Origin: Bispira polyomma
Taxonomy: Eukaryota
Assembly: GCA_965649765.1 (NCBI GenBank)
Contig: OZ287748.1
Location: forward strand, 101,370,001 to 101,434,000
Length of the DNA stretch: 64,000 nucleotides
Direction: 5' to 3'
A program made the position numbers and the translations under genes. Below the pieces are notes generated by a model that worked only from the letters and a program-made list of their open reading frames with translations, searched no databases and was not told where the DNA came from. Below, piece by piece: positions 1 through 55,827 of the stretch. The first letter of the stretch is position 1; each line of letters begins with the position of its first letter.

Positions 1-1882
1 CTATGATTATCCCTCAACATTTGCAACATGCGGTTTAAGTATACCCGAGAATATTTTATGCATTTCGACACATACAGAAGGGACCCCAGCAGTGATTGCA
101 ATTCTCTTGGTACAATTACTCTTACCCTCCCAGTGCTTACATATTGCTCTGATCTCGTCCAATTTCTCCGCTGGAATAGAAGTTGTAAAAGTCTCAGTGT
201 TTATCAAAATACCTAGGCAAATAACCTCAGTACTGGGGGGGAACAAGTTTTTTGAGACTGACCGTCGGGCCCAATTCTGTCAGCAGAGCCTGTAATCTGT
301 TATATATTTTCCCAATTTTACTGGGGAGAGCAGCGCAAAGATAATCGTCGATATAAGCGTGTATATGGAAGCCTTCATGTGCTATAATATATCTGACCGA
401 GTCAGAAATTCGCTGAAAGATTGTGGACCCATTCTGATATCCGAAGGGTAGGGATCTGTCCAAATAATAGGCCCCCCACTTTAAACCAAGCAAATCCACA
501 TCCCCCGGGTCTATAGGCATGTGCCTGAATGCGCAACTTATATCTACTTTAAAAATGTGACAACCTCTGCCCAGCTCTGCCACTTCCCTAGTTACATTAT
601 CCACCGAAGGATAGGACAACAAAAATTCTGTCCCCAGATACTTAGAAGTGGAAGCCCCTGCATTAACGGACCGACCAATAGGCCAGTTGAGGTCTACAAT
701 GACCCTTCTGTTGGCTGAGCTGGACTTATTGCGCATCATGATGGGTGAAAAGTGCATGTTATCTATAGGGGGGTTGGCAAACGGACCCAGTATGGCACCG
801 AACTTGCATTCCTCAGTAAAATAAGTGTCCACGTGTTGGGGATAGTCAATGGCAGATTTGTGGTTTTCTTCATGCGATTGATCAATGTTATCACGACTGA
901 CATCGAGGGGAAAGCCATACTTGATAAGTAACGGTAACTGCCAATCCCAGTAATTCTTAAGATACCGAACCCACTTTTCGGGTTTTAGCTGCGAAAGGAC
1001 CGGTATTTGCAAACCTTTGAAATTTTGTCTGCCATCCTCCCGCAGTAATATATGCATCTTTAAAATGTCAGAGCTGTAATTTACAGAGCCATGGTCCCAC
1101 ACCCTGCAGCCCAAGTCTGACAGTGGTGTGAAGCCATAGGCCACTTTATTTTAAGTTTTTGCTCTGTCCAACAGTTCCCTTTTATTTACCTTCTGCTTCA
1201 GCTCAAAAGCATACTTGTCAATTTCAACACTTTCTGTAATATTATCAGTGTCAGTGCTTCTACAATGAGCCGTTGTAGCTGTAAGAGCCTTAACGTTTCT
1301 CACAGAACCTGTTTCACAAGCCCTTTTTGCATAATTTCTTTGATTACACACAGTAGAACCCACAGTGGGATTCTCTGCGACATTAATGTCAATTTGGTCT
1401 ATATCTTGTAGCACTTCGAATCTATTGTACACAGGGACCCCAGTGAAGTCATTGCTTGCATTCACATGTGCCTTTGTGTCTTCACTAACAGCTTCCACAA
1501 GTTTGCCCTCAGTTTCCCCCTGTACAGTGTATTTCCCCCCAGCACTAGTTTTGCCTTTGTGCTGGGTGGTACTGTGTGAGGTGAACTAATGGGGGACAAT
1601 GGGTTTGCGACAATTACTTTTAACACCGGCCTTGAAATGTTTACCCCGCCTGGCATGCTGTGTACCATTGAGATTATCCCTAGGGGGGCACTTTGTACTT
1701 AAGAGACTTTTGTTTGCTATGTCAGGACCCCGTGTTCGATTCAATACCTCGCTGTAACTACATTTATTCGCCCTACTACTTTTATTTACATGCGAATTGA
1801 TACTAGCAGGTCTGCTGAACAAATGGAAGTCCTGAAAATCAGTCTTGTAACACTGCCCATTATGGACAAAATTCTCAACCAC
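1..1882 (-). pseudogene. Ngaro pol (N-terminal extension + RT + start of RNase H), frameshifted
   Basis: ORF pieces 1586-1882, 1151-1498, 227-1144 and 7-246 align in order to ORF2 of copy 2 (YWDWQLPLLIKYGFPLD, RRVIVDL, YPSVD, YIDD). Confidence 0.88.
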
Positions 1883-1912
1883 TGCATTTCTGCAGTGGCC
1901 CCTTAGTTTTTT
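1877..1912 (-). promoter_or_regulatory. Putative -1 programmed ribosomal frameshift signal (A_AAA_AAC + hairpin)
   Basis: gcA AAA AAC TAA, then ccactgca-GAAA-tgcagtgg. The -1 frame reads open into ORF 1586-1882. Confidence 0.7.
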
Positions 1913-2955
1913 GCTGATTTTCTATTACAGTTGGTGGTTTTGTGAGCTCCACTACAGGTTTCACACACATGCTTAAAAGAAGTGTTGCCTGTTTTATGAC
2001 TACTGGGGTACTTACAAGACCCATCTTGAAAAAATTTGCAATTAGCTGTGCCCGACTTAGTAAAGGTTTGATTTTTCCCGACGCCCTTTGCAAGTGAACC
2101 CTGAGAGCTACCACTGCCAGAGCCATGCCTCTGCACATGTACCCGCCTAAGCCGGTCAATTTTGTCGACGTCGCTCCATTTAAGTTTGTCCATTTCCATG
2201 GTTGTAAGTACAACCACATGGCAGGCTTTGGCGGCCTCCCAGGAAAAATCCTGGGAGTCCTCCATCAGTCCAGCCATGTAGTCAAGCATGATCTCTTTGG
2301 TTTCGGGGGATTTCTCATCTTGTATTATATGTGTGAATCCGCAGACCCACTGGTTCCAAGTTAAGGCATCATAACACGGTCTAGCTTTAAAATTTCCGGA
2401 GAGGACATGATTTTGAGGCCATTCAACCACGCGCTTCACTATTACATCAACACCCCCCCCCCCCCTTTGAGACTTGATCTTACCTTTAACCGGGTTCTCG
2501 TTGAGGTGTGCGAGCTCGGCTAGCCTTAACTCGACTTGGTTCTGAATGCTACTGCTCTGTTTTAAAAACTGTACACTCGGGACAACAGTGTTCTCAATAC
2601 TTGTTATTTCCTCACTCGAGCTGGCAGAATTGTTACTGGAAGCAGTAGCCGCAGCCACGTGTGTTTTAGCAACGTTTGATACTGGAGTGGTTTCCGTTAT
2701 TTCCTCACTCGAGCTGGCAGAATTGTTACTGGAAGCAGTAGCCGCAGCCACGTGTGTTTTAGCCACGTTTGATGCTAGAGTTGTTTCCGTAACTGACACT
2801 CGCTGGTCAAGTTTTTCCATCAACTGGCCCATAGCCTGAAGTTGTGCTAATATTTGTCCCGAAACCACGGCCACACTATCAACGCCAACCGGACTAGGCT
2901 CAACAGTTTCCTCATCGGATACAGTCTCTTCCTTGATTGAATCTTTGGACAACAC
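1903..2955 (-). CDS. Ngaro gag-like ORF1 (copy 1)
   Basis: GKIKSQRGG..WPQNHVL..YDALTWNQWVCGF..LMEDSQDFSWEAAKACH and a C-terminal Cys/His finger; homologous to 35611-36681. Carries a 93-bp internal tandem duplication. The N-terminal Cys motif is partly deleted. Confidence 0.85.
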   Translation of the reverse strand: MLSKDSIKEETVSDEETVEPSPVGVDSVAVVSGQILAQLQAMGQLMEKLDQRVSVTETTLASNVAKTHVAAATASSNNSASSSEEITETTPVSNVAKTHVAAATASSNNSASSSEEITSIENTVVPSVQFLKQSSSIQNQVELRLAELAHLNENPVKGKIKSQRGGGGVDVIVKRVVEWPQNHVLSGNFKARPCYDALTWNQWVCGFTHIIQDEKSPETKEIMLDYMAGLMEDSQDFSWEAAKACHVVVLTTMEMDKLKWSDVDKIDRLRRVHVQRHGSGSGSSQGSLAKGVGKNQTFTKSGTANCKFFQDGSCKYPSSHKTGNTSFKHVCETCSGAHKTTNCNRKSAKN

Positions 2956-3232
2956 AACCTGGCATTTACTGCCTGACTTTAGGCATGGTAATGTGTAATG
3001 TTACAGTAATACACTGCACAATACATATAGGAAAGACTACAAACAGTACACTAAAACATAGAGACAAAATGTAAACATCCGCGTCCTTGTGTGTTTTGTA
3101 ATGTTACAGTAATATAAATCAATGTTAATACTAGATCAATGCTAATACTATATGAACGACACAATCAATATTAAAGCCAGTGTACTCAAATTTTGTAAAG
3201 GAATGTAAACAAGAATCCTTTATGATTTCCTC

Positions 3233-3265
3233 GCAGGCGAGCATTCTACCACTGAACCACGATGC
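3233..3265 (-). other. 5' half of tRNA-Gly(GCC) embedded in the Ngaro leader (not a complete tRNA gene)
   Basis: Minus strand GCATCGTGGTTCAGTGGTAGAATGCTCGCCTGC matches the metazoan tRNA-Gly(GCC) 5' half as recalled, with one G missing. It stops in the anticodon loop. Confidence 0.8.
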
Positions 3266-4249
3266 ATCCTTTGTGATTTTGCCACCCTTTTATGGTGACC
3301 TCGCAGGCGAGAGCACTCTGTGATGAAGTTGTTCCTTCTGCTGCCGAGTTTGAAAAGGATCAATAATTGGACAGCCGAGGCTTATATAGTACTACGCAAT
3401 GCCCCGTGAACGGGAATTAGACTGGTCCCCTACAACTGATCACTCAACCACTGGGGTGGTGCCTTGCACTAAAACTTCATTAAATTATGTTTAGGATCAA
3501 AATTGATAACGCCAAACAGTACTTGCAGAACTGTAAAGTCTAATTTGCATGGAATACAATTTAACAGCCACAAACAGACTTGGTTCCAAAAGGATTTTGT
3601 ATCTCAAAAGTAATAGAAAAAGTGTTCTCAATTTTCAATTTGCATACAAATATTTCACTCAGGAGATTCTTTGATCTTCCATACAAATAATTTATGTTTA
3701 CATGTAAAAGTCTGTACAAAATTTTGTATTGAAGTTTGATTAAATATGTGTCTAAAACAAGCCTAAAAGGCAAGAGATAAATGTGTTTCAGTCCATAACC
3801 TCTGAAAAGGGATAATGTTCTGTCCACTTGTTTTGACTTGTTGGAACTGAATAATTTGTGACAATAAAAGATGTGCAAATTTGTGAAATTTTAATCTTAG
3901 TAATATCATTTAAACATTGATTGTATTTGTTTACAACATTTTAAAAGCATCTTAATCTTGCCAGATAGAGCACTAGTTATCTAATTATACTTCATATCAG
4001 AAATTACAACACTGTGTCTTCTAGTTCAGATTTTAAAATGAATGTTTTACAATCGTTTTTTTTTTAAATATCAGAGACTTTAATTATACCCTAACTTTTC
4101 ATTTGTTATACTTTTCACTTGTTGTTTTTCTGTCAATAAGGCATAAAGGATTTTTAGAAACATTTTTCGCCAAGAAAATCATGGCCACTTCTGACCTTAG
4201 TAACCAGAACGTCAAACTAAACAGCTTACTGGTTCAACATAAAGGAGGC

Positions 4250-9097: not shown

Positions 9098-9835
9098 TCT
9101 CAAGCACTAAATTCATTTGTTTAAGTGATTGTATTAAATGTACTTGCATTGACTTAATTCAATAACTTTTATGATGCCTTCCACCCTCGCCATAGAGATG
9201 TTAAAAGTGAGATATTTCACTTTTTGGGGTATAAAATAAACGTCTATTGTGACATGAAGTTATTAAAGATAAAAAGGGTTTTCTCAGAAACGGGCCTCCA
9301 AGGCCTCAGGCCTATAATGCAATTGGTTTAACAATTGCAAATATATATCTTCCTCATGGGCTTTTGTACCAAAAATTCCACGATAGTAATACATAATATA
9401 TAATACATAATATATTTATCAACATATTGTTAACAAACACCTGTCTAAATCACAGAAGAGATTTTTCTGCACCTTTATAAACTTCTCGGTTCCACATCTC
9501 TTATTATTTCATAAATTCGTTAAATCAGGTGTAATGGTAAGTTTATTGTCTTATTTTGCACACATTGCATTATGCATTTTTAATGCATCTTCTTGATGCG
9601 AAGCATCTTCTAAAGTGCAATAACAGAATCAATTAATCAATCGAGAAGTCCAAAACCATAGCCATTGTTCTAATGAAGGATGTGGGGGTATATAGGTATA
9701 GGGGGTGGTGTGGCTGAGGGAGTGAGTTTAAAGTGGTTTTAAGTTTCTGGTGATCTAAACTCAATTGGGAGAATATTCAATAACGGAGGGGCAGTGATTG
9801 AGAAAGTTCTAGATCTAGCCCTCTTTGTGGGTTTA

Positions 9836-10085
9836 GGGGCCGCGTTCGCCTGGTGGTTAGCAAGCATTGCACTTCACAGTCACTGGTCTCTCACCTCTGA
9901 GCGGTGTGAGTTTGAATCCTGTCGATGTCTATGTGGGAAAGGTGGTAGTTCCTTACTGTGGGCCGCTGGTTTCAGTGCAGAACCTTGATCAACTGTATGC
10001 AGTGTTTCCTCCAGTGTTTCCAACTACCCGTCCCAATATAACCTAAACAGGTACTAGAGTGGACGTTAAATATCCCAATTCAAAT
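9836..10085 (+). mobile_element. tRNA-derived SINE (family 1), full length
   Basis: ggggccgcg head, A/B boxes, (caaatt)n tail; 14-bp TSD tctttgtgggttta at 9822-9835 and 10086-10099. Confidence 0.92.
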
Positions 10086-11464: not shown

Positions 11465-14400
11465 CTGTTAAGTACATAGAAACAAAACAAAAACATAGAG
11501 GAACAAAACATGAAATTTTGTACATATTGAATACATTTTTGTGTTTTAATGGGTCAATGTATAGGTGCATGTCTTAGTTATTATAATTACAGACCTATTT
11601 TGCTAGTTTTGTTGCGTGTGTAGGGGGCAGGGGGAGCATTGATAAAACCTGTGCAGTATTAATCAAATGTGACTTTGTCTTTCAAGCTTAGTAGAAAATT
11701 ATAACCAATCCAATAATTTAGACATTCAAGTAGTATGTTAAAATCATAAGGGTAAAAATGACCACCCCATTTCGATCTAAGGCCATTTCGATATATCTGC
11801 TGATTTTTAGTAGTGCTGTATCAGTACAATGGAATTTTCTATAGACTGATGTGGGGTTTAAACATATGGTTGATGGACATATGTTCATTTATTTGGAATG
11901 CAAAAGCTTTCTCAATCAACTTCAAGGCAAAGCTAAGGTGAGATACTAGAAAGATTTTGGAAAGCAGCCTTCTTGATGGGAATAATTTCTTATGTTTGTT
12001 GTTGGAGTAAGTAGAACATTAAGAAAAAATCCCGAGAAGTAGTGCAATGTGATGAAGTTATAGTCTTTAGGACTTCATCTTTTCCGAGGATGTTAAAATT
12101 ATCCAAAGTAGAGGGTTGGTATGGTGGAGCAAGTATGTTCTGAAGATTGGATGGTGTAAAAGCCATGCCAATATTATCAATCTTTATTAGTGAAAACTGT
12201 TGCAATCAGGTAGCACTGGGTCAGTAACTTTATGAAGGATTCTATTTACAGTCTACTATAATTTCTGTATTCTATAAAGAAACTCAGGCACAAACAAGAC
12301 ACAATTTGCATTGGAAACAAACTACGATGTTAACAGCTTTATCAATGGTGTTGTGCTTCAGAAGATGCCTGGCATCAATTAGGCGTGTTAAAATCTATCA
12401 TACAAGATCATCAAGAGAAATAGTGTACCACCTTGCAGATAGAAATAACCTATGCTTGTGACCATTCATTTTAGTGTTGAAATATTGGTGAAGTGATTCT
12501 GTTCTTGTACGCTAGAGGATGATTTGCATCAAAAAGGCACATTAAAAATGCAAATACAATACAATCAAATATGCAGTAAAATTTCATTTTTTTTCAGTTA
12601 AGCAAGAGAATGGAAGACCTTAGAGTTTTATTCTTTTTTGCTAGCAATATGTCTCACTTAAATCTGTAATGTAGAATCATAGTCCATTGACATAACCACA
12701 GTCGTAAGGAAGGTAGCGCCATACCCAGCTCTACCCATAACTCAAGATTAACTCAAGATTTGAACTTAAACCTAAATAACACTTTATCTGGGCTTTCCCT
12801 ACCATACATCATAGAGGTATTAACATATCTTTGTGAGTGTATGTCCTGTTACTGCACACCTTATCCAGGTGTAAATATTCCCACTTTTTTAACCTGATGT
12901 TGAGCTTGAAATTATATTTTGACAATATGGTGGATCATAATTATAAAAATTACACCTGGGTTATGGGTGTGATAAGAGGGCATAAATTCACACAAATACA
13001 TTCATGCCTGCTGGGTGTATGGTGGGGAAGGCCCAGATTAAGTATAATTCCTGGCGTCTGCGCCTTTTAGTGGAATCTGGGTGATTATCCTTACCCATCC
13101 ATTGGAAAATGCTGAACTCCATGTGTTTTACAGAATGGTCCTTCTGTGTAAAGTGTCTTGAGACAGGAGTGGATTTGTTTGGTAAGAAGTTTTGAACACT
13201 TCTGCAGTGTTCATACATTCTTTGCCTGAATGGTCTTTTTGTTTCCCCAATATATTGGAGACCACATTTTGCACAATTAATAATGTATATAACATTATTC
13301 AATTCACATGTGATTTTGTGTCTAGGTGGGAGGTTAACACATTTGAAGACTTTATTACTATTAAAACTGGTAATGTTTTCCAGTTTGTTAATTCTTGGAC
13401 AATAGGTGCACTTACCCAGTCTTGTACAGACTGGGATATGTGTCTGTAATTGCACTGTGTCCTGCTTAGGTGGAAAAAGGATATTGCTTGAAGTGAGCTT
13501 ATCCTTTAAATTAGGTAGTTTTCTGTATCCAATCAGTGGTTTTGAATTGAAGATTTGAGTCAATTCTTGGGTATTCTGGATGGTATTCCAGTTACCATTT
13601 ATAAGTTGGTTGATTTGGGGGTTGAAGGGGTTGACCTGGGTGACCATGACTGGGGTGTCCACTGGTGTCTTAGTGAGCACTGTGTCTAACAAATCATTCT
13701 GTGAAAATTTGCTGCCCTTTTTGTAATGTTTTTTGAGGTAATTGAGTGGATATCCTCTTTTTAGGTAATACCCTGTTAACTTGTAGGCATTGTCCTTAAA
13801 GTCGCTGTCTAGTGTACAGATTCTCCTAAGGCGCAAATACTGACCATATGGTCCCTTTTCAAGGACACTTTTAGGGTGGGCTGAGGTAAACTCCAGATAC
13901 AAATGTGTATCAGTGGGTTTGTTATAGAGAGTTGTGATGAGTTCTCTATTAGCTCCAAATTTGACCGTTGTGTCTAAGAAGTTAATGTGGTCATGGCTAT
14001 ATTCTTGTGTGAATTTAATGGTTTGGTGTAGTGAATTGAGATACTCAAAGAATTGAATGAGCGTTTGTTCACCATGTGTCCAGATCATAAAGATATCATC
14101 AATAAATCTTTTCCATACTAAGGGTTTTAATGAGTAACCATTTAGTGTCTTTGTCTCAAATCTGTCCATAAACATGTTTGAATAGTTGGGTGCTAAAGCT
14201 GTGCCCATAGCTGTCCCTGCTATCTGTAGGAAGTGGTCACCATTGAACTCAAAATTCATACTATGTAAAACCAATTTGAGGAGATCCAGTATGAATTTGG
14301 CTATGGGTGTTTTGGTTGTGTCCTTCCTTAGTTGTTCTGCTACAGCTAGTATTCCTTCCTGATTAGGAATATTGGTATACAGTGATGATACATCAAGAGT

Positions 14401-17400
14401 ACATAGGATTGCTCCTTGTGGGATAGGGCCCAAGTCTTTTATCTTTTTGATAAAGTCCTGAGTGTCTCTGATGTATGATTTAGTGGCTGGTACATATTTT
14501 TTGATATGTTCATCAACCAATTTACTAATTCTACTAGTAGGGTGGTTAACAGAACTACAGATTGGTCTACCAGGAACTCCTTTTTTATGTATTTTTGGGA
14601 GTAAGTAGAATCTACTTTCTGTGCAATTATCTGGGCTCAAGTGTTCTAAATTTTTGGCTGATATGAGGCCTTTTTGTCTCATCTGAATCAGGGTGTCTTT
14701 GACCTTTTGGCTAATGTCATTCGTGGTGTCATGGTCAAGTTGGGTGTAGAAGTTAGTATCACCTAATTGTCTATAACCCTCTCTGAGATAGTCAGTTGTG
14801 TTCATTACTACAACTGCTGAGCCTTTGTCCGCCTTTTTAATAACATATTTGGGTTATTACTAAGTTCTCTAAGGCCAGTCATTTGACCTTTAGTTAGGTT
14901 GGGGTTCTTTCTGCCTTTGATTTTACTTTTCAGTAATCCCAATTTAAAAGCTCTGTGGAAAACCTCTAGTGACTGATGTGTTCTAGGTGGTTTCCAACTA
15001 CTTTTATCTATGAATTTTTTGTGAATTTCCTTGTAGGGGTTTTCAGCTTCATCAAGGTTATTAGCCAAGAAGTCCACTAAGTCCATTTCACTTTGGTCTA
15101 AGTTACTGAGGAGGTCGTTATCTTGATAGAAATGGTATTTGAGGCAAAGTCTTCTGTGGAAGTCTTTGAAATCCAACCAAATTTGTGACTTATTAGGTTG
15201 GCCTGGGGTTGGGCAGAAGGTTAAACCTTTTTGTAATGCAGAGACTTGGTCACCACTCAGGGTCACATCTGATAGGTTTATAACAGTGTGTCCAATGAGG
15301 GTGTCCATAGTTTTGTCTTTGGGAAGAATCCCTGGAGGAGCAATTTTGGCTTCCTCCTTAATTCTAGTAAGGATGTCTTGATAGTTATTCCTTTCCATCA
15401 TTGACAATGTGGATATGGAATTGGATACTGAGGTCCAAAAGGGGCTACCGGTTGGCTCCCCTTTGTTGTCAAGGTGAGTATAATAACAATATACAAATTT
15501 AAATAAATTGTATTTTATTTATATACAAATCTTACATTAGAGTTGTATGTGTGATAAGGCAAAATAAATTTATTTATTTTTAATTAGTTTGCTGAGTCCA
15601 TTCAATAGGGACTGAATTTGTCTATCATTATTTTGGACATTTTTGCCCCTTTTCTGGTAGGGTGCAGGTTGTCTCCTGGGTTTCTTTGTTGGTGGGCCAG
15701 GGCGCCTTTCTGGTTTTCTCTGCTTGAGTACTTTGGTGGAGGCAGCTGTTTTGTACCTCTCATTCAGGGTGTCCTTGACTTCTTTGAATTGGGTGGGGTC
15801 AAGGATTGTCTCTAGTTGTGCCAGGACTGTTTGGATCTCGGATTTGGTTTCACAATATTTTCTGTTTAAGTCCTCAGAAAGTTGGTGTGTCAATTCTCTT
15901 CTGCATCGATTGACACACTCAACCCACTTTGTTTTGAAGACTTCATCAGTTGACACAGGTGGTGTGCATCTGAAAGCTGTCTGTGCAGGAAACTTTCCAA
16001 TCTTAAGGTTGTCCTTGATGAAGTGTATGTTAGTGGCAATACTTAACTTCTTTCTGTAAAAGTTTTTCCCTTTCAGATACAGAGGTTTTGCTTCAGGTGG
16101 GTACTTCTCTCTACTGAGGCTGGTTCGCTCAGATGAGGGTGACTCCATTGTCTTCCTCTTTTTATTTTTTGGTTTCTGGTTAGGTTCATTAAGTTTTTTT
16201 GAAACTTCTTCCAGCAGAGATATGGTCTCACTGCTCAGTTTGGTGACTGGAATTGGGGTGTCAGTAGCTGGAGTATTGAAAGCTGTGTGACTGTCCACTT
16301 CTAGGTGGTTGATAGCAGTGCTAAGGGCAGTATCACTCTCACTCATTTTGACCCAGTAAAATTAAGAAAGATATGATGTGTGTGAGAGAGAGGTGTATTT
16401 GTCTTCTCAGGGATATTGTTGGAGAAGACAAATACACCTCTCTCTCACACACATCATAGCTTTCTTAATATGGTGGATCACTATGAAATATTACACTGAC
16501 CTGCTCTTTAGTGTCCTCTTTATCCAGGTCATCATAAGGCACACCACACCAGTACTTCTCCTGCTGGTCCTCACTACAACACCAGCCAAACCTCTCCGCA
16601 AGGTTGATCACAGTCATAGGGTCTAAATCTTTAGGGTCCTGTCTACCTGTTTGGATGCATTTGAATTTAAATTTGCTTGTTAGAGGTATGGCAGTTACTG
16701 GTGATGGTTATGTGTACAGGTACTGTGTACAGTCCATAAAAGGGTCTCTTCAGGATTTTGTCTACATAGTTGTAGGGAACACATAACATCAGGAGCTAGA
16801 TTCACAAAATGTGTTAAATCTAAGACTAACATTGTGCTTATACCAGGCTTTAACTTTTGTCTTAGCTAAGGTTTGTCATAATTTTACCCTTTATAAAAAG
16901 ATTACTGGGCCTGTCATGTTTGATGTGTTTAGTCTGACAAGGACAAATATATAACTGTTTGAGGTTTAATGAAATAAGAGGCAAAAAAAAAACAATAATA
17001 ATCTCACAAAAATATGGTTATCAGTTATGAACTATAGACAAAATATAAGAAAGACTATACTGATACAGATCAAGACAAGTGTAGTCCTAAAGTGGTGATA
17101 TGGATGTGGATCAGGATACTGATGTGTTAGTACATTAACATTAGCATCAGCATATATTTTCATTTAAAAAGTATACATGAGGCCATTCTGAAAAACCAGG
17201 AGACGTCTCTAGTATGTATTTTAGTGACTTCTCTAACAATTTATCCAGAATTTCCTTTACTTGACAGCAATACTTGCAAAAACTTGCATAAAAGTTGAGT
17301 TCAAAACCTATTTCAAGCATATTTAAGAATTATACTCAATCTGTTTTTAGAAATACACAAATGAAACAATACAATTAACATGTGCAATACAATTAAAATG

Positions 17401-20400
17401 TTAAATTTTGTACCAAAACATGTAAAAAGAAAAACCGTACTTCATGATAAAATATAATCATTTTACTGTAAATAAGTCAAATTAAGTTCACATAATATTT
17501 GTTCTAAGCAAGTATAGATATTTACTAAGATATTTACCAAGATGTTATGGAGCATTTTTGTAAATTCTGACATACCAAATACAATGCAACTGACATGCAA
17601 AGATACATAAATATATGCTAATTAAAAAACTTGTAAAAATGTAAAATAGCATCAGAGATGTCAAAATCCAACTGCCGTCGATTCTAGGACAATACTTGAA
17701 GGTCAACTGGCAAAATTATGTTAGACCATGACATTGCACACCTATACCCCCAATGAATATTTGTAACAAATGTGAACTTCCTAAGCTTTATGCTTTTTAT
17801 ATAGGATAAAATTAACAAATAAAGTGAAATTTATTTGTGAATCCGGTTTTATGTTCTTCTCAAATCTGAGATCTCAACATCTTTCTTGAAAAAGAGAAAA
17901 TATGTACATGTAAGTTTAGTGATGAAAGCTCCATTAAATAAATGGTTACAAGTACTGGTTATTTCCATTATATAATGACTTCGAAGTAAACCTTTTTTAA
18001 GTTCAACCTGAGTTTTGAGAATATAGAGCCTGGTCATTGTGGCTGTGTTGAGATCTTAGTACCTGTGATGAAGGACACAATCACAGCTGTAAAGATAGTG
18101 GTCGCCCATCCTATGAGACCTATGTAGATGAAGGAGACTCTATAGAGCCAGAAAACGTCAGTGCTGAAATTACACAACACATTCAGGGTAATCATAAGTC
18201 ACAGGCCTGTAAACATTAACTTGCAATATTAGGCATACTAGAATCCTAAATGTTTTGCTTTTGTCAAAATATAGCAGACCTGCTCATACACTTAGATGAC
18301 TTGGTCTGTGTGTATAATAAAGACCTGCTCATATACTTAGATGACTTGGTCTGTGTGTATTTTTTTTTTTTGAATTGGAATATTTAACATCCACTCTGTA
18401 TGCAATACCACTTGGCTTGAAACTTTTGACGTTCTTGACATAAACTCACATATAGGTTTGAATTAAGATATTTAACGTCCACTCTAGTACCTGTTTAGGT
18501 TATAGTGGGACGGGTAGTTGGAAATGCTGGAGGAAACACTGCATACAGTTGATCAAGGTTCTGCACTGAAACCAGCGGCCCACGGTAAGGAACTACCACC
18601 TTTCCCACATAGACATCGACAGGATTCAAACTCACGCCGCCCAGAGGTGAGAGACCAGTGATTGTAAAGCGCAATGCTTGCTAACCACTGGGCCACCTCG
18701 ACCCCTCTATGTGTATTTTAAATACCTACTCATATATTTGGTCTGGGTGTATGATAAAGACCTGCTTATATACTTAGATGACTTGGTCTGTGTGTATGAT
18801 AAAGACCTGCCTTTATACTTACATGCCTTGATCTGTGTGTCTGTCAAAGAACTGATCATATACTGAGATGACTTGATCTGTGTGCATGTTAATGACTTAC
18901 TTATATACTTCGATGACTTGATCTGTGTGCATGTTCAAGACCTTCACATATACTTAGATGCCTTGGTCTGTGTATAATAAAGACCTTCTTATATACTTAT
19001 ATAACTTGGTCTGTGTGTATATGTAAGACCGGCTCATAAATTAAGATCACCTGGTATGTGTATGTATAGACTTACCGATCATCCTCTATTTCCAGGGCTG
19101 TGTCATTGCCAGTAAAGGTACAGTTGTCCACATTAGTCTCTAGGTATGATGTGTGGGGGAAGTAGATGAACTGACCTATATTCATCCAGCTCATGATGGC
19201 AAGGCCAGCCAATACACCAGTCATAGCACCCTGTGTAAACAATGATTGTCTATTATCTTCCTCTCTACTGAACTCCCCCCTGTCTATGGGTATTGATTTT
19301 TTCTAGTCATTTTTTATAATATTACAGAATATTCAACTGTAGTTTTAATTATATTCCACTGTAGTTTTTAACTATATTTCCTGATCAAGTATGAAAAAAC
19401 TTTAAAGAAGGTGTTCAGTACAATGTTAATCGACTCTTCTAAATTTCTGTCTATGATATTGTTAATATAATCATACTTTTTTCATATAAGGCTGGTTGTA
19501 AAACTTTTCAATTAAAATATGTGGTTACACCAATAGTATACTAATTATAAACAACCTCCTTTAAAAGTTAAGAACAAAGAAAATGTTCAGTTCTGTTACA
19601 TGTGTAAGTCCAAATTTGAAGAGAATTTGAATTTGGATATTTAACGTCCACTGTAGTACCTTTTAGTAGGTTATATTGGGACGGGTAGTTGGAAACGCTG
19701 GAGGAAACACTGCATACAGTCGGTCAAGGTTCTGCACTGAAACCACCAGTCCACAGTAAGGAACTACCACCTTTCCCACATAGGCATCGACGGGGTTCGA
19801 ACTCACGCCACCCAGAGGTGAGAGACCAGTGATTGTGAAGCGCAATGCTTGCTAACCACTAGGCCACCGCGGCCCCTCCAAATTTGAAGTCCAACTGTAA
19901 GAGGCACACATAAATTGTCAAAATCACATATATTAGTATATTAACTTTGAGAATTTTGTTGCAACAGTAAAAGCCAAAGAAAGTGTTAAGGTTGTGTTAC
20001 ATGTCCAGATACCAAGTAAAAGTGTAAAAAGTCAACTTTAACTTAAACTGCTACAATGTCAAGATTAAGATGTGTGTGTAACCTCCTTAGGTCCTATTTT
20101 AACAAGAAAGGCCAAACGTGGTGAATTTGTGTTACAAGTGTTATAAGTCAATTAACATTGTACTGAATACCTTAAAAAGTCCTCAACTTTATTGTTCATA
20201 GACAGATAGATCAATATACAAAAGGATAATGCCTCTCCTTGAATAAATTCAGGCTTGTGGCTAAACAATAAGGGAATAAACAGATGTAAGGGCTGATACC
20301 TTCCATTGGACACAAGGAAACAAAGCACCCACCATGACCAACCCAGATAGTGGCCCAGATATTCCTCCCAGTAAGGATTGGCCAATCTGTAGATTGTGAC

Positions 20401-35379: not shown

Positions 35380-35382
35380 CTG

Positions 35383-35535
35383 TGTAAGCGAACGCCCTCA
35401 GCGTTCGTGGCCTCAGTTCTGGGGTACCAGCCTGTTCTACTATTATGGGATGGTGTACGACTATATAAGGCTCTCCTTTTTCAAATTCTCCCGCCTTTAT
35501 CGTTTCGTCAGCAGAGCAACAACTAGTTTAAAATT
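35383..35535 (+). repeat. Ngaro repeat A1 (TATA-like ctatataag at 35461)
   Basis: Identical by eye to 40582-40734. Confidence 0.95.
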
Positions 35536-35610
35536 TGTTTGGGTGACATTTTGTTTATGGTGTTTACGGTTTTATAATTTATAATATTTTAGTTGAAACA
35601 CCATCTAGTC

Positions 35611-36681
35611 ATGCCTGTCTTTGATTGTAGCCAATGTTTAACCAAACATGAGCGTCCTGTCGGGCGAAATTGCGTTAATGAGAAAATTGTTGACTCTGTC
35701 TCTGGGGAGGAGATCGATGCTGCCTCAGACACTGAACCTGCAAACGGTGAGTCCGGCGATGCAGTTACCAATGCTATACTACTTCAACTGCACTCGATGA
35801 ACGAATTAATGGTGAAAATGGACCAGCGGGTTCAGAGGAATGAGGCAGCATTGGCGACGAACCTTACCAGTAGTCAGGCAAGTCATCAGGTCCCCGTTCA
35901 GGCAAGTAGTAGTTTGATTAGTTCTAGTGTTGTCAGGCCTGCTAGTTGCTCTGCTGACGTAGGTAAGAGCCCATCTATCGCTACGTCCGACAGTATAATT
36001 CCTGGCATAGATTTTTTAAACCAGAATGCCCTAATACAGCTCCAAGTGGAGCAGAGATTGAAAGATCTCAAAACGTTGAATGAGACCACCGCGCAAGGTA
36101 AACTGAAGTCCCAGCGTAGTGGGGCGAATGAGGTATTGGTAAAGAAGGTCACCGCCTGGCCTCAAAATTATGTGCTGACGGGTAGTTCTAAGTCTCGGCC
36201 AAGCTACGATGAGTTAACCGTGTTGCAATGGGTGTGTGGTTTCGCTCGGATCGCCCAAGAGGAGAAGTCGATCAAAGTGAAGAATGCCATGCTGGATTAC
36301 ATGGGGGGTCTTATGGAGGATGCCCAGGATTTTTCTTGGGAGTCAGCTAAGGCCTGCCATGCAGTCGTATTGACAAGTATGGAGATGGATAAGTTAGGTT
36401 GGCTAGAGGTAGATAAGATGGATTGAATCCGAAGAGCCCATGCTCAGCGCCATGTGTCGAACAGTAGAAATTCCTCTGGGGGGAATGGACGGCTAGGTAA
36501 CTCTAGTAGCAGTAAATCTGGCAGTCGTAAAGGTGCAATGTTTTGTCGCTTTTATCAGGAAGGAAATTGTAGATTTCCCAGCTCTCACAATACTGGAGGT
36601 CAGTTATATAAACATCGTTGTGAGACATGTGAGGGTAGCCACAAGACTAGTGAATGTCATAAGAAAGGGGCAAAAAACTAA
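35611..36681 (+). CDS. Ngaro gag-like ORF1 (premature TGA at 36424)
   Basis: MPVFDCSQCLTKHERPVGRNC N-terminal finger and C-terminal Cys/His finger. The stop replaces the Arg present in copy 1 (CGA>TGA). Confidence 0.88.
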
Positions 36682-36707
36682 GAGGCCACTGCGTTGATGC
36701 AGTGGCT
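36672..36707 (+). promoter_or_regulatory. Putative -1 programmed ribosomal frameshift signal
   Basis: gcA AAA AAC TAA, short spacer, gccactgc-gttgat-gcagtggc hairpin. The -1 frame is continuous with ORF 36702-38366. Confidence 0.72.
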
Positions 36708-39099
36708 AAAAGGGGTGAGCAAAAAAGTAGGTTTGTCTATAATATTAAATTTAAGGATATACAATTATTTGAGAGGTCTGTGTGTCAGAAAATGTGTAAA
36801 TATGTGAAGGGCACCAGACCAGGCTTGAGCTATAGCCAGGCGTTGCAAGAGACTGGCCCAGTTCAAAAGTATGGGTGTGTAAATAGAAGTGTTGATAATG
36901 TACAGGTAAAACAGGCAAGGTTTGACAAGAGTAAGGTGACGATAGTACATAACAAAAGTGACACCTTGGTGAGGCCCCTTGGTACCTCTGTGAGCCAATT
37001 GACACCCATTGTGAAGCCTGACACGTGTGCGAAACAAGACAAGGGGATAACAAAGGAGGTCAATTGTTCGAGATTGAATAGGGGCGAAGAGAGGCGGGTC
37101 AATGGGGGTGTGGCTGTCCTCCCTCTTGCTAACAGGTATACAGCTCTAATGTTGCTGCCGGTCGATGACAGTGAAAATGTTGACGAGCCCGTTCGATTCC
37201 TTTCTGTTACTAGTGACAAGCCCGTTAACCGAGGCAAGGCGAGGAGTAAAACTGCTTCCGAAGACCGCCCGGGAAGTTCCGAATGTTCCGATATATACGC
37301 TCGTGCTTTGAAACAGAAAGGAAATAAGAAAGGCATGTTAGCTAAGGCTGCCTCAAATCCTACTTACAGAAAATGGCAAGCTCAAAGTCAATATGCATAT
37401 GGATTCACTCCTCTCTCTGCTCTGGGCTGTGAGATTGCAGATCATGGTGGGGGAGGGCCCGAACTTTCCATATTGGAAATGCATGACTTAATTCGGGCTG
37501 ATGGGAGACACAATTATGAAGGGTTGCAAATCCCTGTTCCCTCTCAATTAAGACCAGAGAGTTGGAAAAAATACCTTAAAAATTACTGGGATTGGCAATT
37601 GCCTCTCCTCATAAAGTATGGATTCCCCCTAGACGTGGATCATTCAGTTCAACTGGAATCCAGTGAGATTAACCATAAATCGGCTGAGGAATATCCACAG
37701 CATGTAGAAGCTTATATGCAAGAAGAATGTGAGTTAGGAGCCATGTTGGGGCCATTTGACAAACCTCCCATTCCGGGCTTGCATTGTTCTCCCCTTATGA
37801 CGAGACACAAACCGAATTCAATTAACCGGAGAGTAATTGTAGACTTAAGTTGGCCTCAAGGGGGGTCGGTTAATGCGGGAGCATCTCCTTCCTCTTGCTT
37901 GGGTGTTGAATTTTTGCTGTCTTACCCATCTATTGATAATCTCACTAGTGAGGTGGTAAAATTGGGTAGAGGATGCGAGATATTCAAGGTCGACATAAGT
38001 AGGGCGTTCCGTCACGTACCCATTGACCCTGGCGACGTTGACCTCCTAGGTCTAAAGTGGAAGTCCTATTATGTGGACAGATCTCTGCCGTTCGGATATC
38101 GTAATGGTAGCACGATTTTTCAGAGAATTTCGGATGGCGTGCGTTTCATAATGCACTCTGAAAATCATAATGTCCACAACTATATCGACGATTTCTTGGA
38201 TTTCTGTTCCCAGCAAAATTCAAAAAACTTACCTGAGATTGCAAAAACTGCTACAAGAATTGGGGTTGACAGTAAGTCAGAAAAAATTGGTTCCTCCCAG
38301 CACACAGGTTGTCTGCTTGGGCATAGTGGTGGATACCATTCGTGGTACTACTTCCATCCCGGTTGAGAAGTTAAGTGAAATTAAATATAAGTGTCAGGAA
38401 TGGAAATCCAAAAAATTCTGCACTAAGAGGGAGCTCCAGTCTTTACTTGGCTTGTTATTGTATATTTCTAAATGTGTGAAGTATGCTCGTGTCTTTTTGA
38501 ATAGGATGCTGGAACTGTTAAGAGATAATTACACCAGAAAGTATATTACCATCAACCCTGAATTCAGGCGTGACTTAAATTGGTTTACTACTTTTGCAGA
38601 ACAGTTTAATGGAGTCTCTTTCTTTATGCCTAAGCCCATAACTGGTGAGATTGAATTAGATGCCTGCCTTACTGGAATGGGGGGTATTTTTGAGAAACAA
38701 GTGTACCAAATTAACATTCCTCCAGAAATGAGTGAGGTCAATATTGCTTCTTTGGAGATGCTTAACATCCTGGTAGCTTTAAAATTGTGGGTTCATAAAT
38801 GGAAAGGTCGTAGAATATTGGCCAGATGTGATAATCAGGCAGTTGTAAGTGTCTTACAGACAGGGCGCACCAGAGATCCGGACTTAGCCACGTATTCTAG
38901 GAATATATACATGTTAGCTAGCAAGTTTAATATTGATATTGTTGTCATACATATTTTGGGTAAAGAAAATAAAATTGCAGATCTGCTGTCAAGATGGACT
39001 GAAACTGAAGCCAACCATTTGTTGTTATTTAGGTTAGCTGGGCCTGTCCAGTGGCTGCCTGCTTGCCACAGTTTATTAAAAGTTAACTCACTTATATAG
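36702..39099 (+). CDS. Ngaro pol: RT + RNase H (frameshift near 38200)
   Basis: KVDISRAFRHVP, LPFGYRNG, YIDDFL, ELQSLLG.L, LDACLTGMGG, IASLEMLN, CDNQAVV, HILGKENKIADLLSR. Confidence 0.92.
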
Positions 39100-39133
39100 C
39101 ACGTGTTAGTCATGTTTTCCAGATATACAACCT

Positions 39134-40109
39134 GTGGCCATCTCCTTGATGCAGAAAGCTTGTGACAGACTTGAACTTGCCTTCACCCCTGCCACTAACA
39201 GAGCCTACAACAGAATGTTCAGGCTGTTCTTGGCGTTTGGAGCCTTTATGTCATGGCCTCTTAAAAAGGTGACTGTGTTATATCTCATAGCATATTTAGA
39301 GTTTTTAACGTTTAATGGTGTGTCGGCGAGTCAAGTTCTTAATCATCTTTCTGCCATTAAGGCAAAGTGTGTCCTCTTCCATATATCTGTAGACGCTTTT
39401 TCTGATAAAAGAATCACCTATTATAATAGAGCTTTGGCAATGCATAGACCATTGCAAGTAAAACTTAAGTCAATTTTCGACGTCCAGTTGTTGAGGTCTC
39501 TTATTATAAAGTGTGACAGCACTTACATGGGTCAAATTTTTAAAGCAGTTTATCTCACCAGTTTCTTTTCCTTTCTGAGGCTGTCTAACCTCTGTGCTCA
39601 TTCGGTTGCTGCTTACTCTCCTCTTAAGCAGCTTGCAAGGGCTGATGTCCTTTTCAAGCCAGGGTATGCTGTCCTCATTGTTAAATGGTCTAAAACCCTT
39701 CAGAACAATAATGCCGTTCGTTTGCTCACCATACCAGCTTTAACCAATTCCATTTTATGTCCGGTTCAAGCTTTAAAAAACATACTGTCTATTTCTCCCA
39801 AAGGGGAAAGATTTGCCCTTGTTTCGATTTAAGCAGAATGCCATTTCGACTCCCCTCACTGATACTAGGGTTCGCAGGCATCTTAAGAATGTCTTACTAA
39901 TGCTGGGCCCGCAGTACTCTGGCTTGACCTTTCACGCCTTCAGGCGTTCAGGTGCCACGTTTGCCTTTAACAATAATGTCACCATTCAGGACATCCAAAG
40001 GCAAGGCACCTGGACGTCCGATTGCGTCTGGCGTTACATTTCGGATTCTGCCAATGCTGGTACTCAAGTTGCCGATTCCTTCAAAACTATTCTACAAGAT
40101 ACGCACTAG
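39134..40109 (+). CDS. Tyrosine recombinase (frameshift near 39808)
   Basis: Catalytic R (FLRLSNL), K (KWSKT), CPV, HxxR (FHAFRRSGAT), GTW..D..WRY. Confidence 0.92.
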
Positions 40110-40120
40110 AATTTTTGGGT

Positions 40121-40734
40121 TTGGTGGCATGACTGTAACATCTAGTCAGTTTAACATTGCAAGTAGCATATTAATTACCTGTAAACTAAATGAATTAACT
40201 GTGGGCATAAGGTCCCCCGGTATTATTAAAGTACATATTGTACTCATGTAATTAAAGTTGCACTTAAACCCTAAGTCAAACTTTAATTTGTTAATCTTCA
40301 AAGTCATATTTAAGTTTCAACTTAAATCAAATTTTCTAAATTCAACTTCTTTATTAGTTAGGGTTACTTAAACTCATTCTGGTTTAACCTAAAGTCCTAA
40401 ACTCAGTTGAGTTAAGGGGACCTTATGCTCACACAAAGTGTATATCATGTCAAAGAACTGTACATAAATATCTTAGTAATAGTAGCTGTAAATATGAAAT
40501 AAAATATATTTAACCGCAGTATTGTCTTTCTATGACTGGTTCGGTTAATTGAGTTTCCTCAGGCACTACTCCGAGGAAGTGTGTAAGCGAACGCCCTCAG
40601 CGTTCGTGGCCTCAGTTCTGGGGTACCAGCCTGTTCTACTATTATGGGATGGTGTACGACTATATAAGGCTCTCCTTTTTCAAATTCTCCCGCCTTTATC
40701 GTTTCGTCAGCAGAGCAACAACTAGTTTAAAATT
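40121..40734 (+). repeat. Ngaro B1-A2 internal junction
   Basis: ...ccgaggaa-gtg-tgtaagcg... Confidence 0.95.
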
Positions 40735-52920: not shown

Positions 52921-55612
52921 ATAAGGTTTCATTTCATGTACAGTTGTGTTTTACTACAGGTATAGTTTTTCAAGTACAGTAGTTTTTTATTACACGTCCT
53001 CTTATTCTTGTCTAGGGTATATTTTAGCATTGTCTTGTTTAGTAGTTGTTAATGTGTACTTGTTTAATAGTTTCAGAAACGGTGATGATATTGATGATGT
53101 GTATTATGTGAACGGCAATTCTTTCAATAAAAATTGTAATGTGGAGACATGATATTTTCAAACACCTAAGTTACTTGCACACAAGCCACTTCTGCTAATC
53201 ATGTAACTGAGAAATCTATAAAGTACATTAATAACACAATGGAAACTGCCACAGAAAAAAGAGCTTGTATTGGTTTCTTTGTAAAAGTGTGTACACGTCT
53301 TTCTGTGAATATAACTTTTTCCTACTTTTTTATCATTGCCCAAGTTACTCAAGTCACCACAGTATACAGTCATTTGTTGCATGACTGTATATTTTCTCAT
53401 GTAGTGCTTTTTCATTTTAATTTGTAGTAAGGTTTTTAGAAATAATTATTTGTGTTTCACACTTTTTTAAGGTTGCTCAAGTCACCACAGTATGAAATAA
53501 TTTTTCACAAGTCCCAGCAAATATCTTTTGTCGAATAATGCTTCTCCATTTTGATTTGTAGTTAGTTTTTAAAAACACAGATATATGTCGCCAGTTGGAA
53601 ATTGAGGACTAAATCTTTGCCATAAGTTTTCATTGGCTTACTGATGTTAAATATATATGTAATGGTAAAGTCGCCTTGCTTACCAAAACTGGTCTCACAT
53701 TTGAGTTTTAGTCTCAGCAATATATTTATTTGCGAATTTAGACTAATATGATTTACTTGAGTGGTTGATATGAAGCAAGAGTATGCTTGAGGCAAGAAAT
53801 TTGGTGTTTAGTTTTTGAAGAAAATATAATGCGAAGTATGGTAACAAATAATAAATGTTTCTTATAGGTAGGCATTGTAATTGTTTATAGAGATTATTGC
53901 TTGAGACTTTTGGCTAAATAATTGAGCCAGTCTTAATTTTGAGACCAAACCTGAGACTAAAGTTGGTCTCAACTGATTTGTGAATATTTCCCAATGTGAG
54001 ACTAAAACTTGATTTAGACAAAATTTAGTCACAGACTATATAATGAATGGTGCCTCCAAATATTGTGTGTTCAATTCTTATGTGTATACTAACACTAAGT
54101 GAGTATGAATTTTTGTATGGACAAAAATACCAAAGATGTTTGTAAAGCTTGCCAAGATTGTGGAAGAAACCCATGCTGAAGCACTGTAAACCACCGACCT
54201 ACAGCAGGTACCTGCCAAACTTCTCCAAATGAAGAAATGAATGGGATTCAAACCCACACTGATGAGAGGCCAGTGGTTTTGAAGCAGGCACTTCTAATCA
54301 CTAGGTCGCCACAGATCCAGATTTACATTGGCGGCCTGTAAGTTTTGCAAATAGTGGTTACTATTTCCTTCGTATATTGGTGTGCATTGATCTGGGTTTT
54401 TGTTTTTGTAGTTTAACTTAGTATTTTTGTACAAATGTAATGACTTTGTGTTCAGTTACATGTTTGAAACTGCATGTGAAGTGAATTAAATCTGGTCTCC
54501 AGTCAATACTACACTATTGGTATTGACAACACATTAATATCCAATGAGGTAATGTTTGCGACTTCTTTTTTTATAGTATTCGACTGACTGAAATGTTAAT
54601 TTCAAAGTGCAAGTTTAGAATTTAAAATCCCACCTATGGTTTCTTTAATGACAAAAGCAGAGTGGCTCTTTACATAGAAGTTATTGTCAAAGAGGCCTTG
54701 CTAGTTATGATTAGGAAATGACAACAAACGTTTACCTGGGCTTAATGATTACTTCAATGGGTCCTTGAAGGATGCCCAGTTTCAAAGGAAAACTGGTATT
54801 TTGGATTCTCAGTGAAAGTTCTACACCGTTAACTTTACTGTTGTTTATCTTAATCCTAATTACTTGTTCCCTAATGGCTCTACTCAAACAGCTAATTGCT
54901 ATTTGTTTGCTAGTTTTTGTTTCTGAATCTCTAATATCTACTTCAATGGAATCAGTCTTAGATGTATGTATCAATTTAATGTGGTTTCCCCTTTTTGTGT
55001 TACACCAATCGAAAACGTAAAAGCGTTATTTTAAATGCCCTGTGAAATGACCATTTGACCAATAAGATCAGAGGCAGTATTTATTAATCTTCAATTATAG
55101 AATACAAGGACAGTAAGACAAACAAACCCAGTGATTGTGATCCAAAACAGTCAAACATGTTGTTGAGTCCTTTGTTTGAAAACCTGGATTTAGAATATAA
55201 CATGTTTTATATAAAGTAATGCTATCTGAAAGCATCTTTTTCTTTGCTTTTGGTTCTGAATTTATAAAGCAGAGTTTAAAATAAACTCTGGGGGCTCATC
55301 TGTGAGATATACTGTATCATTGTAATGTTTTGGCTGATGCTATCAGATCTAGTCCGTTATTCTGTAGGCTTGTAAGATTAAATCATGTAAATAATAAAAT
55401 TGTTGGGCTTCACCTGGTACACTCAAGCTCAAAGCCATCAGAAATACTAGAGTATTTGTAAGTCTTAGAAGAATAATGTCTATGATATAGTAAATGAACA
55501 CTAGTTGGAATATAGAACAATTTATTGTTGCCAACTGAATTTAAAACCAAATCAACAGACCATTACTCCAATTGTTAAGTTGCAATAATATTCTAACACT
55601 CTTTGTTTCTAC

Positions 55613-55827
55613 AACCACTGGTCTCTCACCTCTGGGCAGCGTGAGTTCGAATCCCGTCGATGCCTATGTGGGAAAGGTGGTAGTTCCTTACTGTGGGCCG
55701 CTGGTTTCTCTGCAGAACCTTGACCGACTGTATGCAGTGTTTCCTCCAGCATTTCCAACTACCTGTCCCAATATAACCTACTAAAAGGTACTAGAGTTGA
55801 CGTTAAATATCCAAATTCCAAAATTTT
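55613..55827 (+). mobile_element. SINE family 1, 5'-truncated
   Basis: 12-bp TSD ctttgtttctac (55601-55612, 55828-55839); absent from the duplicated copy. Confidence 0.88.

What the first reader, a model, noticed from the sequence alone, without database searches (positions are those of the whole stretch)
3229..3316. tRNA-Gly(GCC) 5' half built into the Ngaro leader
Seen: 33 nt matching the tRNA-Gly(GCC) 5' half, in the same sense as the element and ending in the anticodon loop, lie between repeat A and gag. Its 3' portion (ctcgcctgcgagg) is repeated ~70 bp away. Established: 5' tRNA-Gly-GCC halves are abundant small RNAs; DIRS/Ngaro elements have no classical tRNA primer-binding site, and a PBS would be antisense to the tRNA 3' end. 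Inference: this could be a captured tRNA half that primed or joined second-strand cDNA, a Pol III A-box, or a small-RNA mimic. Copy 2 lacks it.
Basis: partly seen in the sequence, partly recalled or inferred. Interest (0 to 1): 0.7.

Follow-up and report, generated by a model that had tools for sequence, protein, structure and literature searches.

The report
Captured tRNA half in Ngaro leader
One small, young subfamily of a jumping gene carries an almost exact copy of the front half of the host's glycine tRNA in its leader, which its sister subfamilies lack, so it is likely a one-time capture during reverse transcription that now rides along, not a required primer site.

Summary
Window 3265-3233 (minus strand) equals nt 1-34 of the host tRNA-Gly(GCC) with one G missing. 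It lies in the element's sense, between repeat A and gag of an Ngaro-type tyrosine-recombinase retrotransposon.

It is not a one-copy accident or a SINE head. All 13 subfamily copies found with a leader carry it, and the other exact or near-exact genome hits that I checked are whole tRNA genes.

It is not a general Ngaro feature either. All 29 sister leaders examined lack it and keep an empty site, with one copy of the 14-nt repeat that flanks the half. Trees fit a single gain.

A second, worn piece (nt 20-34) touches the end of repeat A. Both pieces, and a later 140-nt duplication in 9 of 13 copies, join at the same element word GAGG.

Best reading: a mature 5' tRNA half was captured once, by RNA ligation or a template jump, in a recombination-prone leader, and is now a passenger. 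There is no B-box and no antisense primer site. A co-opted plus-strand primer site is not excluded (about 12%).

The parts
3320..3468 (-). Repeat A1 (149 nt), the 5' end of the element, with a TATA-like motif at 3382-3388
   Evidence: Homology among copies stops at 3468. A1 and A2 of full copies L063 and L068 define the 3' end. The TATA label is my reading.
3303..3319 (-). Worn partial tRNA-Gly piece (nt 20-34; one substitution, 2-nt insertion) directly touching the end of A1
   Evidence: Alignment. Absent from sister leaders. Deleted in one subfamily copy, L193.
3289..3302 (-). Leader word GAGGTCACCATAAA, close to the L133/L136 sister leaders and antisense to a motif repeated 8 times in repeat B
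3266..3279 (-). 5' copy of the 14-nt direct repeat flanking the half (AAATCACAAAGGAT)
   Evidence: A single copy in sister leaders, e.g. L136/L232-L235.
3233..3265 (-). tRNA-Gly(GCC) 5' half, nt 1-34 with one G deleted (33 nt), in the element's sense
3229..3232 (-). GAGG, 4 non-tRNA letters between the half and the 3' repeat; also the start of the 140-nt leader duplication in 9 of 13 copies
3215..3228 (-). 3' copy of the 14-nt direct repeat (AAATCATAAAGGAT; 13 of 14 identical to the 5' copy)
1903..2986 (-). gag-like ORF1 with an N-terminal Cys/His motif; broken in this copy by an out-of-frame deletion just after the start codon
   Evidence: No Pfam hit; 'gag' is assigned by position.
227..1150 (-). 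Part of the RT ORF. The element runs off the window's left edge; RNase H, recombinase and repeat B lie in L061
   Evidence: PF00078 E 1.3e-09

Best explanation
A mature tRNA-Gly(GCC) 5' half sits in the leader of one young Ngaro subfamily and is absent from its sisters; it was likely captured once during the element's own RNA-to-DNA cycle and likely rides along without a needed function. SHOWN: the identity to the host tRNA, the start at nt 1, the end in the anticodon loop, the sense orientation, the flanking 14-nt repeat, the empty site in sisters and the clustering on trees. INFERRED: a cut 5' half was joined to a leader RNA end beginning at GAGG, either by RtcB-type ligation or by an end-to-end jump of the element's RT. 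RT then copied it to nt 1 and re-entered a normal element RNA slightly downstream, which duplicated the flank. A second switch, using the 3-nt AGA overlap at the A1 end, left the worn nt 20-34 piece. The order of these two steps is unresolved. The founder then produced about 13 copies.
For: (1) RNA origin: the match starts at mature nt 1, and the 10 upstream bases match none of 6 host genes. (2) The end coincides with natural halves. Two runs from other organisms, guessed to be RNA and with loose ends I recognise from memory as small-RNA adapters, pile up only over the half (3 of 29 bins; X5 pieces 3233-3265). (3) One gain: carriers form one side of a branch in the A-repeat tree (12 rows, 94/90, not starred). 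In the RT tree they form a 100/100 clade with one extra row, L134, which has no leader at all. (4) Empty site in 29 of 29 sister leaders: 24 aligned, L124 and L136 read, and L233-L235. (5) The leader is a recombination hot spot: 14 of 24 sister leaders hold internal duplications of 20 nt or more. (6) The carrier leader looks mosaic: A1 and gag are closest to L199 (0.86, 0.81), while the blocks beside the half are closest to L133/L136/L195 (0.92-0.95 and 0.82-0.86). (7) There is no microhomology at the 3' junction. RtcB joins cyclic-phosphate small RNAs to L1 RNA in sense (PMC6789731, passages). (8) No excess conservation: non-CpG differences are 3/308 in the half against 8/530, 15/1067 and 33/1515 in neighbouring parts (11 copies). 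The family is small (13) beside others.
Against: A 14-nt flanking repeat is also the signature of LINE-mediated insertion into DNA. Three junctions share the exact boundary before GAGG, which a pure accident does not predict. The mosaic pattern could be retention of an ancestral leader, since carriers branch at the base of the L199 group. The tree is star-like with about 1-2% terminal branches, so the test for selection has little power. The half has only one difference from the tRNA although the stem branch is 0.057 changes per site. That fits late capture or constraint. No RNA or cDNA of this organism was seen.
Confidence: 0.6

Rival explanations
1. A LINE reverse transcriptase inserted the tRNA half into the DNA of a founder Ngaro copy (a tailless retropseudogene), making a 14-nt target-site duplication. 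The upstream partial copy arose later by conversion. Also a passenger.
For: The piece is 5'-complete, cut in a loop, has no poly(A) and is flanked by a 13-of-14 repeat. These meet the filter of PMC5322556 (TSD 8-35 nt, at least 70% alike, gap of up to 15 nt allowed; passages). The duplication may be 20 nt with three differences if GAGG derives from the G(T/A)GGCA seen in sisters.
Against: The tRNA 3' end has no complementarity to the target, which that paper describes as typical (2-18 nt). No free-standing tRNA-Gly half turned up among 75 genome hits at up to 2 mismatches: 13 are element copies; all 7 dispersed others and 19 of 55 array hits were checked and are whole genes. Halves ending before about nt 32 would be missed. 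It needs a separate event for the upstream piece.
Confidence: 0.22
2. The captured half was co-opted as a plus-strand primer site. Abundant tRNA-Gly 5' halves would anneal to the minus-strand cDNA over 33 nt and prime second-strand DNA from GAGG, just inside repeat A.
For: Sense orientation makes the minus cDNA complementary to the free half, and complementarity ends at nt 34. Both tRNA pieces, and a 140-nt duplication in 9 of 13 copies, join exactly before GAGG, as if a molecule end recurs there. The 9 share one duplication event, so this is one extra data point. The primer of DIRS-order elements is unknown (PMC7192593, passages).
Against: All 29 sister leaders examined lack it, yet those lineages spread. 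A profile of non-Gly halves recovered all 13 carrier halves (E 0.09-0.46) and, by my reading of hit positions, none in other leaders (weak test, 9 isotypes). No truncated copy starting at GAGG was found among 26 matches. The duplication boundary was noticed after the fact and has a 1-nt overlap. No excess conservation.
Confidence: 0.12
3. The half acts as a Pol III A-box promoter part, or as a small-RNA mimic or decoy in the transcript.
For: The half contains the tRNA's A-box region.
Against: No B-box motif within 200 nt downstream. T-runs follow within about 50 nt. Repeat A has its own TATA-like motif. Helenus, the known tRNA-bearing LTR element, keeps both A and B boxes (PMC10886601, passages). 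The leader folds no better than shuffles (z -0.85).
Confidence: 0.04
4. Head of a truncated tRNA-Gly SINE, a chance match, or an assembly artefact.
For: The genome has other repeats with tRNA-like heads in flanking DNA (my reading).
Against: No SINE family shares this head among 75 hits. The reversed-pattern control gives 0. It is present in 13 copies on 6 contigs. Read contigs span both junctions with 0 differences.
Confidence: 0.02

Closest known systems
Ngaro superfamily of tyrosine-recombinase retrotransposons (DIRS order)
   Same: Split direct repeats A1-[ORFs]-B1 A2 ... B2 in full copies; gag-like, RT-RNase H and YR ORFs; no methyltransferase (PMC8547959, PMC7192593, passages).
   Different: A tRNA half in the leader. 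An approximately 690-nt spacer between A2 and B2. 8 of 10 copies that reach B have only A-ORFs-B.
Tailless tRNA retropseudogenes (PMC5322556)
   Same: 5'-complete, 3'-truncated in a loop, no poly(A), flanking direct repeat.
   Different: Described for therian L1. Here there is no 3' complementarity to the target, and the piece sits inside an autonomous element and was amplified with it.
tRNA-half/LINE-1 and U6/LINE-1 chimeras (bioRxiv 10.1101/2025.02.02.635956; PMC6789731)
   Same: A cut small RNA (tRNA nt 1-37, or U6) fused to retrotransposon sequence. U6 is joined in sense by RtcB.
   Different: L1 tRNA chimeras are mostly antisense single insertions. Here the half is in sense, internal, in a YR element, and inherited by a subfamily.
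Helenus (tRNA-bearing non-autonomous LTR elements; PMC10886601)
   Same: tRNA-derived sequence built into a retrotransposon's non-coding end.
   Different: Helenus keeps boxes A and B inside its LTRs and is widespread. Here there is only the 5' half, outside the repeat, with no B-box, in one subfamily.
Primer-binding sites of LTR elements, including copia's tRNA-Met primer (PMC7773854, passage; the use of a cut half by copia is recalled)
   Same: Position just inside the first terminal repeat.
   Different: A PBS is antisense to the tRNA and primes the minus strand. This piece is sense and could only prime the plus strand.

Membership tests
Ngaro | Split direct repeats A1-ORFs-B1A2-B2 | tested here: met
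   L063 and L068 show all four repeats. The window's own copy has only A and B.
Ngaro | RT and RNase H in one ORF | tested here: met
   L066 745-aa ORF: PF00078 E 7e-10, PF13456 E 2e-05.
Ngaro | Tyrosine recombinase ORF after RT-RH | tested here: met
   Phage_integrase/SAM hits E 0.0014-0.04, all below the Pfam cut-off. HxxR and H..W..Y-type motifs read by eye.
Ngaro | No methyltransferase domain (present in DIRS and PAT) | tested here: met
   No MT hit at E up to 0.05. The RT-RH ORF ends about 33 aa after RNase H in L066 and L161.
Ngaro | RT groups with named Ngaro elements | not tested
   No named reference sequences were held; the trees use only this genome.
Tailless retropseudogene | 5' complete, 3' cut in a single-stranded loop, no poly(A) | tested here: met
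Tailless retropseudogene | TSD 8-35 nt with an empty site | tested here: met
   14 nt, 13 of 14 alike; single copy in sisters.
Tailless retropseudogene | RNA 3' end complementary to the target | tested here: not met
   After nt 34 the tRNA reads CAC; the element reads GAGG.
Tailless retropseudogene | Made by LINE RT/endonuclease | not testable with these tools
   The enzyme cannot be read from one fixed event.
Classical primer-binding site | 8-18 nt antisense to a tRNA 3' end next to the terminal repeat | tested here: not met
   The half is sense. The longest antisense match in 37 leaders was 6-9 nt and not tied to the tRNA 3' terminus (library of 117 genes, 10 anticodon types only).
Type-2 Pol III promoter / Helenus-like | Box A plus box B | tested here: not met
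   Box A region present; no box B within 200 nt.
tRNA-Gly SINE | Repeated tRNA head with a SINE body and tail, independent of the Ngaro element | tested here: not met
   75 hits: 13 element copies; all 26 of the other 62 that were checked are whole tRNA genes.

The most novel reading that the evidence does not exclude
This subfamily has evolved a sense-strand tRNA-half primer site. Host tRNA-Gly 5' halves would anneal to the minus cDNA just inside repeat A and prime plus-strand DNA from GAGG, replacing a purine-rich tract used by sisters. It would be the first named primer for any strand in a DIRS-order element, and a replication role for 5' tRNA halves.
Probability: 0.12. Interest if true: 0.8.

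Novelty: new variant of a known kind. Interest (0 to 1): 0.3.

Why it matters
As a passenger, it shows that a tyrosine-recombinase retrotransposon can capture a cut host tRNA at the RNA stage and spread it, an event so far described for LINE-1. It also marks the region just inside repeat A as a place where molecule ends and strand switches occur. The primers of DIRS-order elements are unknown (PMC7192593), so a natural carrier/non-carrier pair of sister subfamilies gives a clean test. If the half primes the plus strand it would answer part of that question for one lineage. As it stands it is one fixed event in one genome, with no sign of function.

Tried and rejected
ARAGORN and Rfam on the window miss the half, so they cannot be used as negatives.

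A D-arm regex scan failed its own positive control (0 of 30 Gly genes) and was discarded.

A metagenome scan with a gag alignment found no confirmed relative (225 pattern hits, 0 confirmed), so other species were not examined. No relatives of this genome are held.

Sequencing runs: no RNA holder listed. Runs X4 and X5 cover only the tRNA part and come from other organisms. The exact cut positions of halves on the whole tRNA were not mapped and stay open.

RNA fold of the leader: not better than shuffles (39 of 200 as good).

Fold-back origin of the junction letters: considered and dropped, since it explains only 3 nt at each side.

Integration into a tRNA gene, as bacterial integrases do: rejected, because the half is 200 nt inside the element and the flanks of copies differ.

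Rows left out: L193, L131 and L126 from the A tree (L193 and L131 have deletions in A; L126 matched A only in part); L070-L072 from the RT tree (no RT); L071 and L072 from the substitution count (near-duplicates of L070). L203 and L195 are long, unsure rows.

Literature: five searches (open-access PMC and bioRxiv only) listed no paper on a tRNA piece in an Ngaro/DIRS leader. Repbase entries and subscription papers were not seen, and no supplements were read. Earlier scan notes: nothing by sequence.

Full report
OBSERVATION. On the minus strand, window 3265-3233 aligns with nt 1-34 of a host tRNA-Gly(GCC) gene at 33 of 34 positions, with one G of the acceptor strand missing. The host genes were found by pattern and confirmed by ARAGORN. 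The match stops after two letters of the anticodon. The 28-nt core has 42 exact matches in the 1.03-Gb genome and the reversed control has none. The 13-mer repeat is real (3229-3241 and 3299-3311), but its last four letters, GAGG, are not tRNA. Contigs from two public runs cross both junctions without a difference; one may be the assembly's source.

THE ELEMENT. Homology among copies begins at window 3468. Two full copies, L063 and L068, show A1-ORFs-B1-A2-spacer-B2. That is the split-direct-repeat plan described for Ngaro (PMC8547959, passages). The long ORF has RT and RNase H and ends about 33 residues later, with no methyltransferase hit. The last ORF has weak phage-integrase hits below the Pfam cut-off. 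DIRS and PAT elements carry a methylase, and some Ngaro a hydrolase (PMC7192593, passages). I file it as Ngaro-type; placement against named Ngaro elements was not tested. The window's copy is A-ORFs-B, and its gag is broken.

DISTRIBUTION. At up to two mismatches there are 75 hits. Thirteen are element copies on six contigs, four of them segmental duplicates. Seven are dispersed tRNA genes, all checked. Fifty-five lie in a Gly/Asp array, of which 19 were checked and continue as tRNA. So there is no SINE with this head, and no free half ending at about nt 32 or later. Every subfamily copy with a leader carries the half (13 of 13). Nine copies compared pairwise are 94.6-97.0% identical.

EMPTY SITE. 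Searches with repeat A, RT and the downstream leader gave sister subfamilies. None of 29 sister leaders has the half or the upstream piece: 24 aligned, two read and three more. The closest ones run from GAGGTTACC through a single AAAATCATAAAGGAT into the AT-rich leader. In carriers that 14-mer stands on both sides of the half (13 of 14 alike), with GAGG before the second copy. More distant families (L158-L161, window copy 2) also lack it. Carriers are one side of a branch in the A tree (94/90). In the RT tree they form a 100/100 clade with one extra row, L134, which lacks A1, leader and gag altogether. One gain on a stem of about 0.057 changes per site, followed by a burst with 1-2% terminal branches, fits both trees.

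ANATOMY OF THE JUNCTIONS. The half starts at mature nt 1 and shares no upstream flank with six host genes, so it came from RNA (inference). A second piece, nt 20-34 with one substitution and a 2-nt insertion, touches the last base of A1. Its first three letters, AGA, are also present at that spot in several sisters. Both pieces are followed by GAGG. In 9 of 13 copies a 140-nt leader duplication starts at the G right after the half; that is one shared event, with a 1-nt overlap. Leader duplications are common: 14 of 24 sister leaders have one. The carrier's A1 and gag are closest to the L199 lineage (0.86, 0.81), while the blocks around the half are closest to L133/L136/L195 (0.82-0.95). This suggests strand switching between lineages, though retention of an ancestral leader is possible. 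Two runs from other organisms, guessed to be RNA and with adapter-like loose ends (adapter identity recalled), show very deep cover over the half and nowhere else, with pieces ending at or near 3233. This agrees with the captured end being a natural half end, but it says nothing about this organism's RNA.

MECHANISM. Most likely (0.6), a cut tRNA-Gly 5' half was joined to a leader end at GAGG, by RtcB-type ligation or an RT jump. It was copied to nt 1, and the cDNA then re-entered element RNA a little downstream, which doubled the flank. A further switch left the worn piece. RtcB joins cyclic-phosphate small RNAs to L1 RNA (PMC6789731 and PMC13247085, passages), and tRNA halves occur in L1 chimeras, mostly antisense (bioRxiv 10.1101/2025.02.02.635956, passages). 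The rival origin (0.22) is a LINE-made tailless retrocopy (PMC5322556, passages): the repeat fits, but the 3' complementarity is missing and no free half was found. Either way the piece is probably a passenger. Sisters spread without it, the family is small, and differences within the half (3/308 non-CpG, 6/55 CpG) are not clearly below those of its neighbours (low power).

FUNCTIONAL RIVALS. A classical PBS is excluded by orientation, and no clear antisense site was found in 37 leaders with a partial tRNA library. A Pol III promoter lacks box B, unlike Helenus (PMC10886601, passages). Plus-strand priming by free halves is geometrically possible. It would explain the recurring boundary at GAGG, and no DIRS primer is known (PMC7192593, passages). 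Against it, a profile search that recovered all 13 carrier halves found none in other leaders by my reading of hit positions (weak sensitivity), and no copy begins at GAGG. I put it at 0.12.

NOVELTY. Five literature searches of open-access PMC and bioRxiv (listings and abstract starts seen) showed no report of a tRNA piece in an Ngaro/DIRS leader. Repbase, subscription papers and supplements were not seen. All papers cited were seen as search passages, not whole texts. Other species could not be examined (one search found nothing).

VERDICT. A real, subfamily-specific capture and a new variant of known small-RNA/retrotransposon chimeras, with no shown function. Interest 0.3.

Noticed in passing
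L068:6180-6762 (repeat B) and window 3289-3302: Repeat B holds 8 copies of the motif TTATGGTN(A/T)CC; A, the ORFs and the spacer hold none; the leader holds one antisense copy. This could be 5'-3' RNA pairing or a protein site.
   Followed up: partly
L136, L133, L195, L194 leaders; window about 3280-3295: A purine-rich tract (AGAAAAGGG-like) lies just after repeat A in several sister lineages, resembling a polypurine tract (recalled likeness). It is a candidate ancestral plus-strand primer and is missing in window copy 2.
   Followed up: no
L061-L069, L193: 8 of 10 copies that reach repeat B end there (A-ORFs-B, no A2 or B2); only L063 and L068 are full. This may be B1/B2 recombination or direct integration of a one-A, one-B circle.
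   Followed up: partly
L068:6912-7600; also L063, L127, L138, L145: A spacer separates A2 from B2 in full copies of several families (about 690 nt in L068 and L063).
   Followed up: no
G000:C9:8.19-8.30 Mb (L012-L030): Tandem array of head-to-head tRNA-Gly(GCC)/tRNA-Asp(GTC) pairs, with 55 Gly hits at up to 2 mismatches. Similar arrays of Thr, Ala and Ser/Leu genes lie on C3 and C11.
   Followed up: partly
window 35383-40734: A second Ngaro-type element of another, larger family (many near-identical 812-aa RT ORFs), with A repeats at 35381 and 40580 and no tRNA piece.
   Followed up: partly
window 12988-14853 (-): RT plus GIY-YIG ORF, as in Penelope-like elements (family name recalled).
   Followed up: no
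window 9835-10084, 18457-18706, 19626-19878, 55611-55821: Dispersed 200-250-nt repeat, 91-93% alike, probably a SINE with a tRNA-like head unrelated to Gly(GCC) (my reading).
   Followed up: no
L070-L072, L193 (C2:18.11-18.34 Mb): Four neighbouring carrier copies share flanks and variants, so they are segmental duplicates. The 13 copies are about 10 independent insertions.
   Followed up: partly
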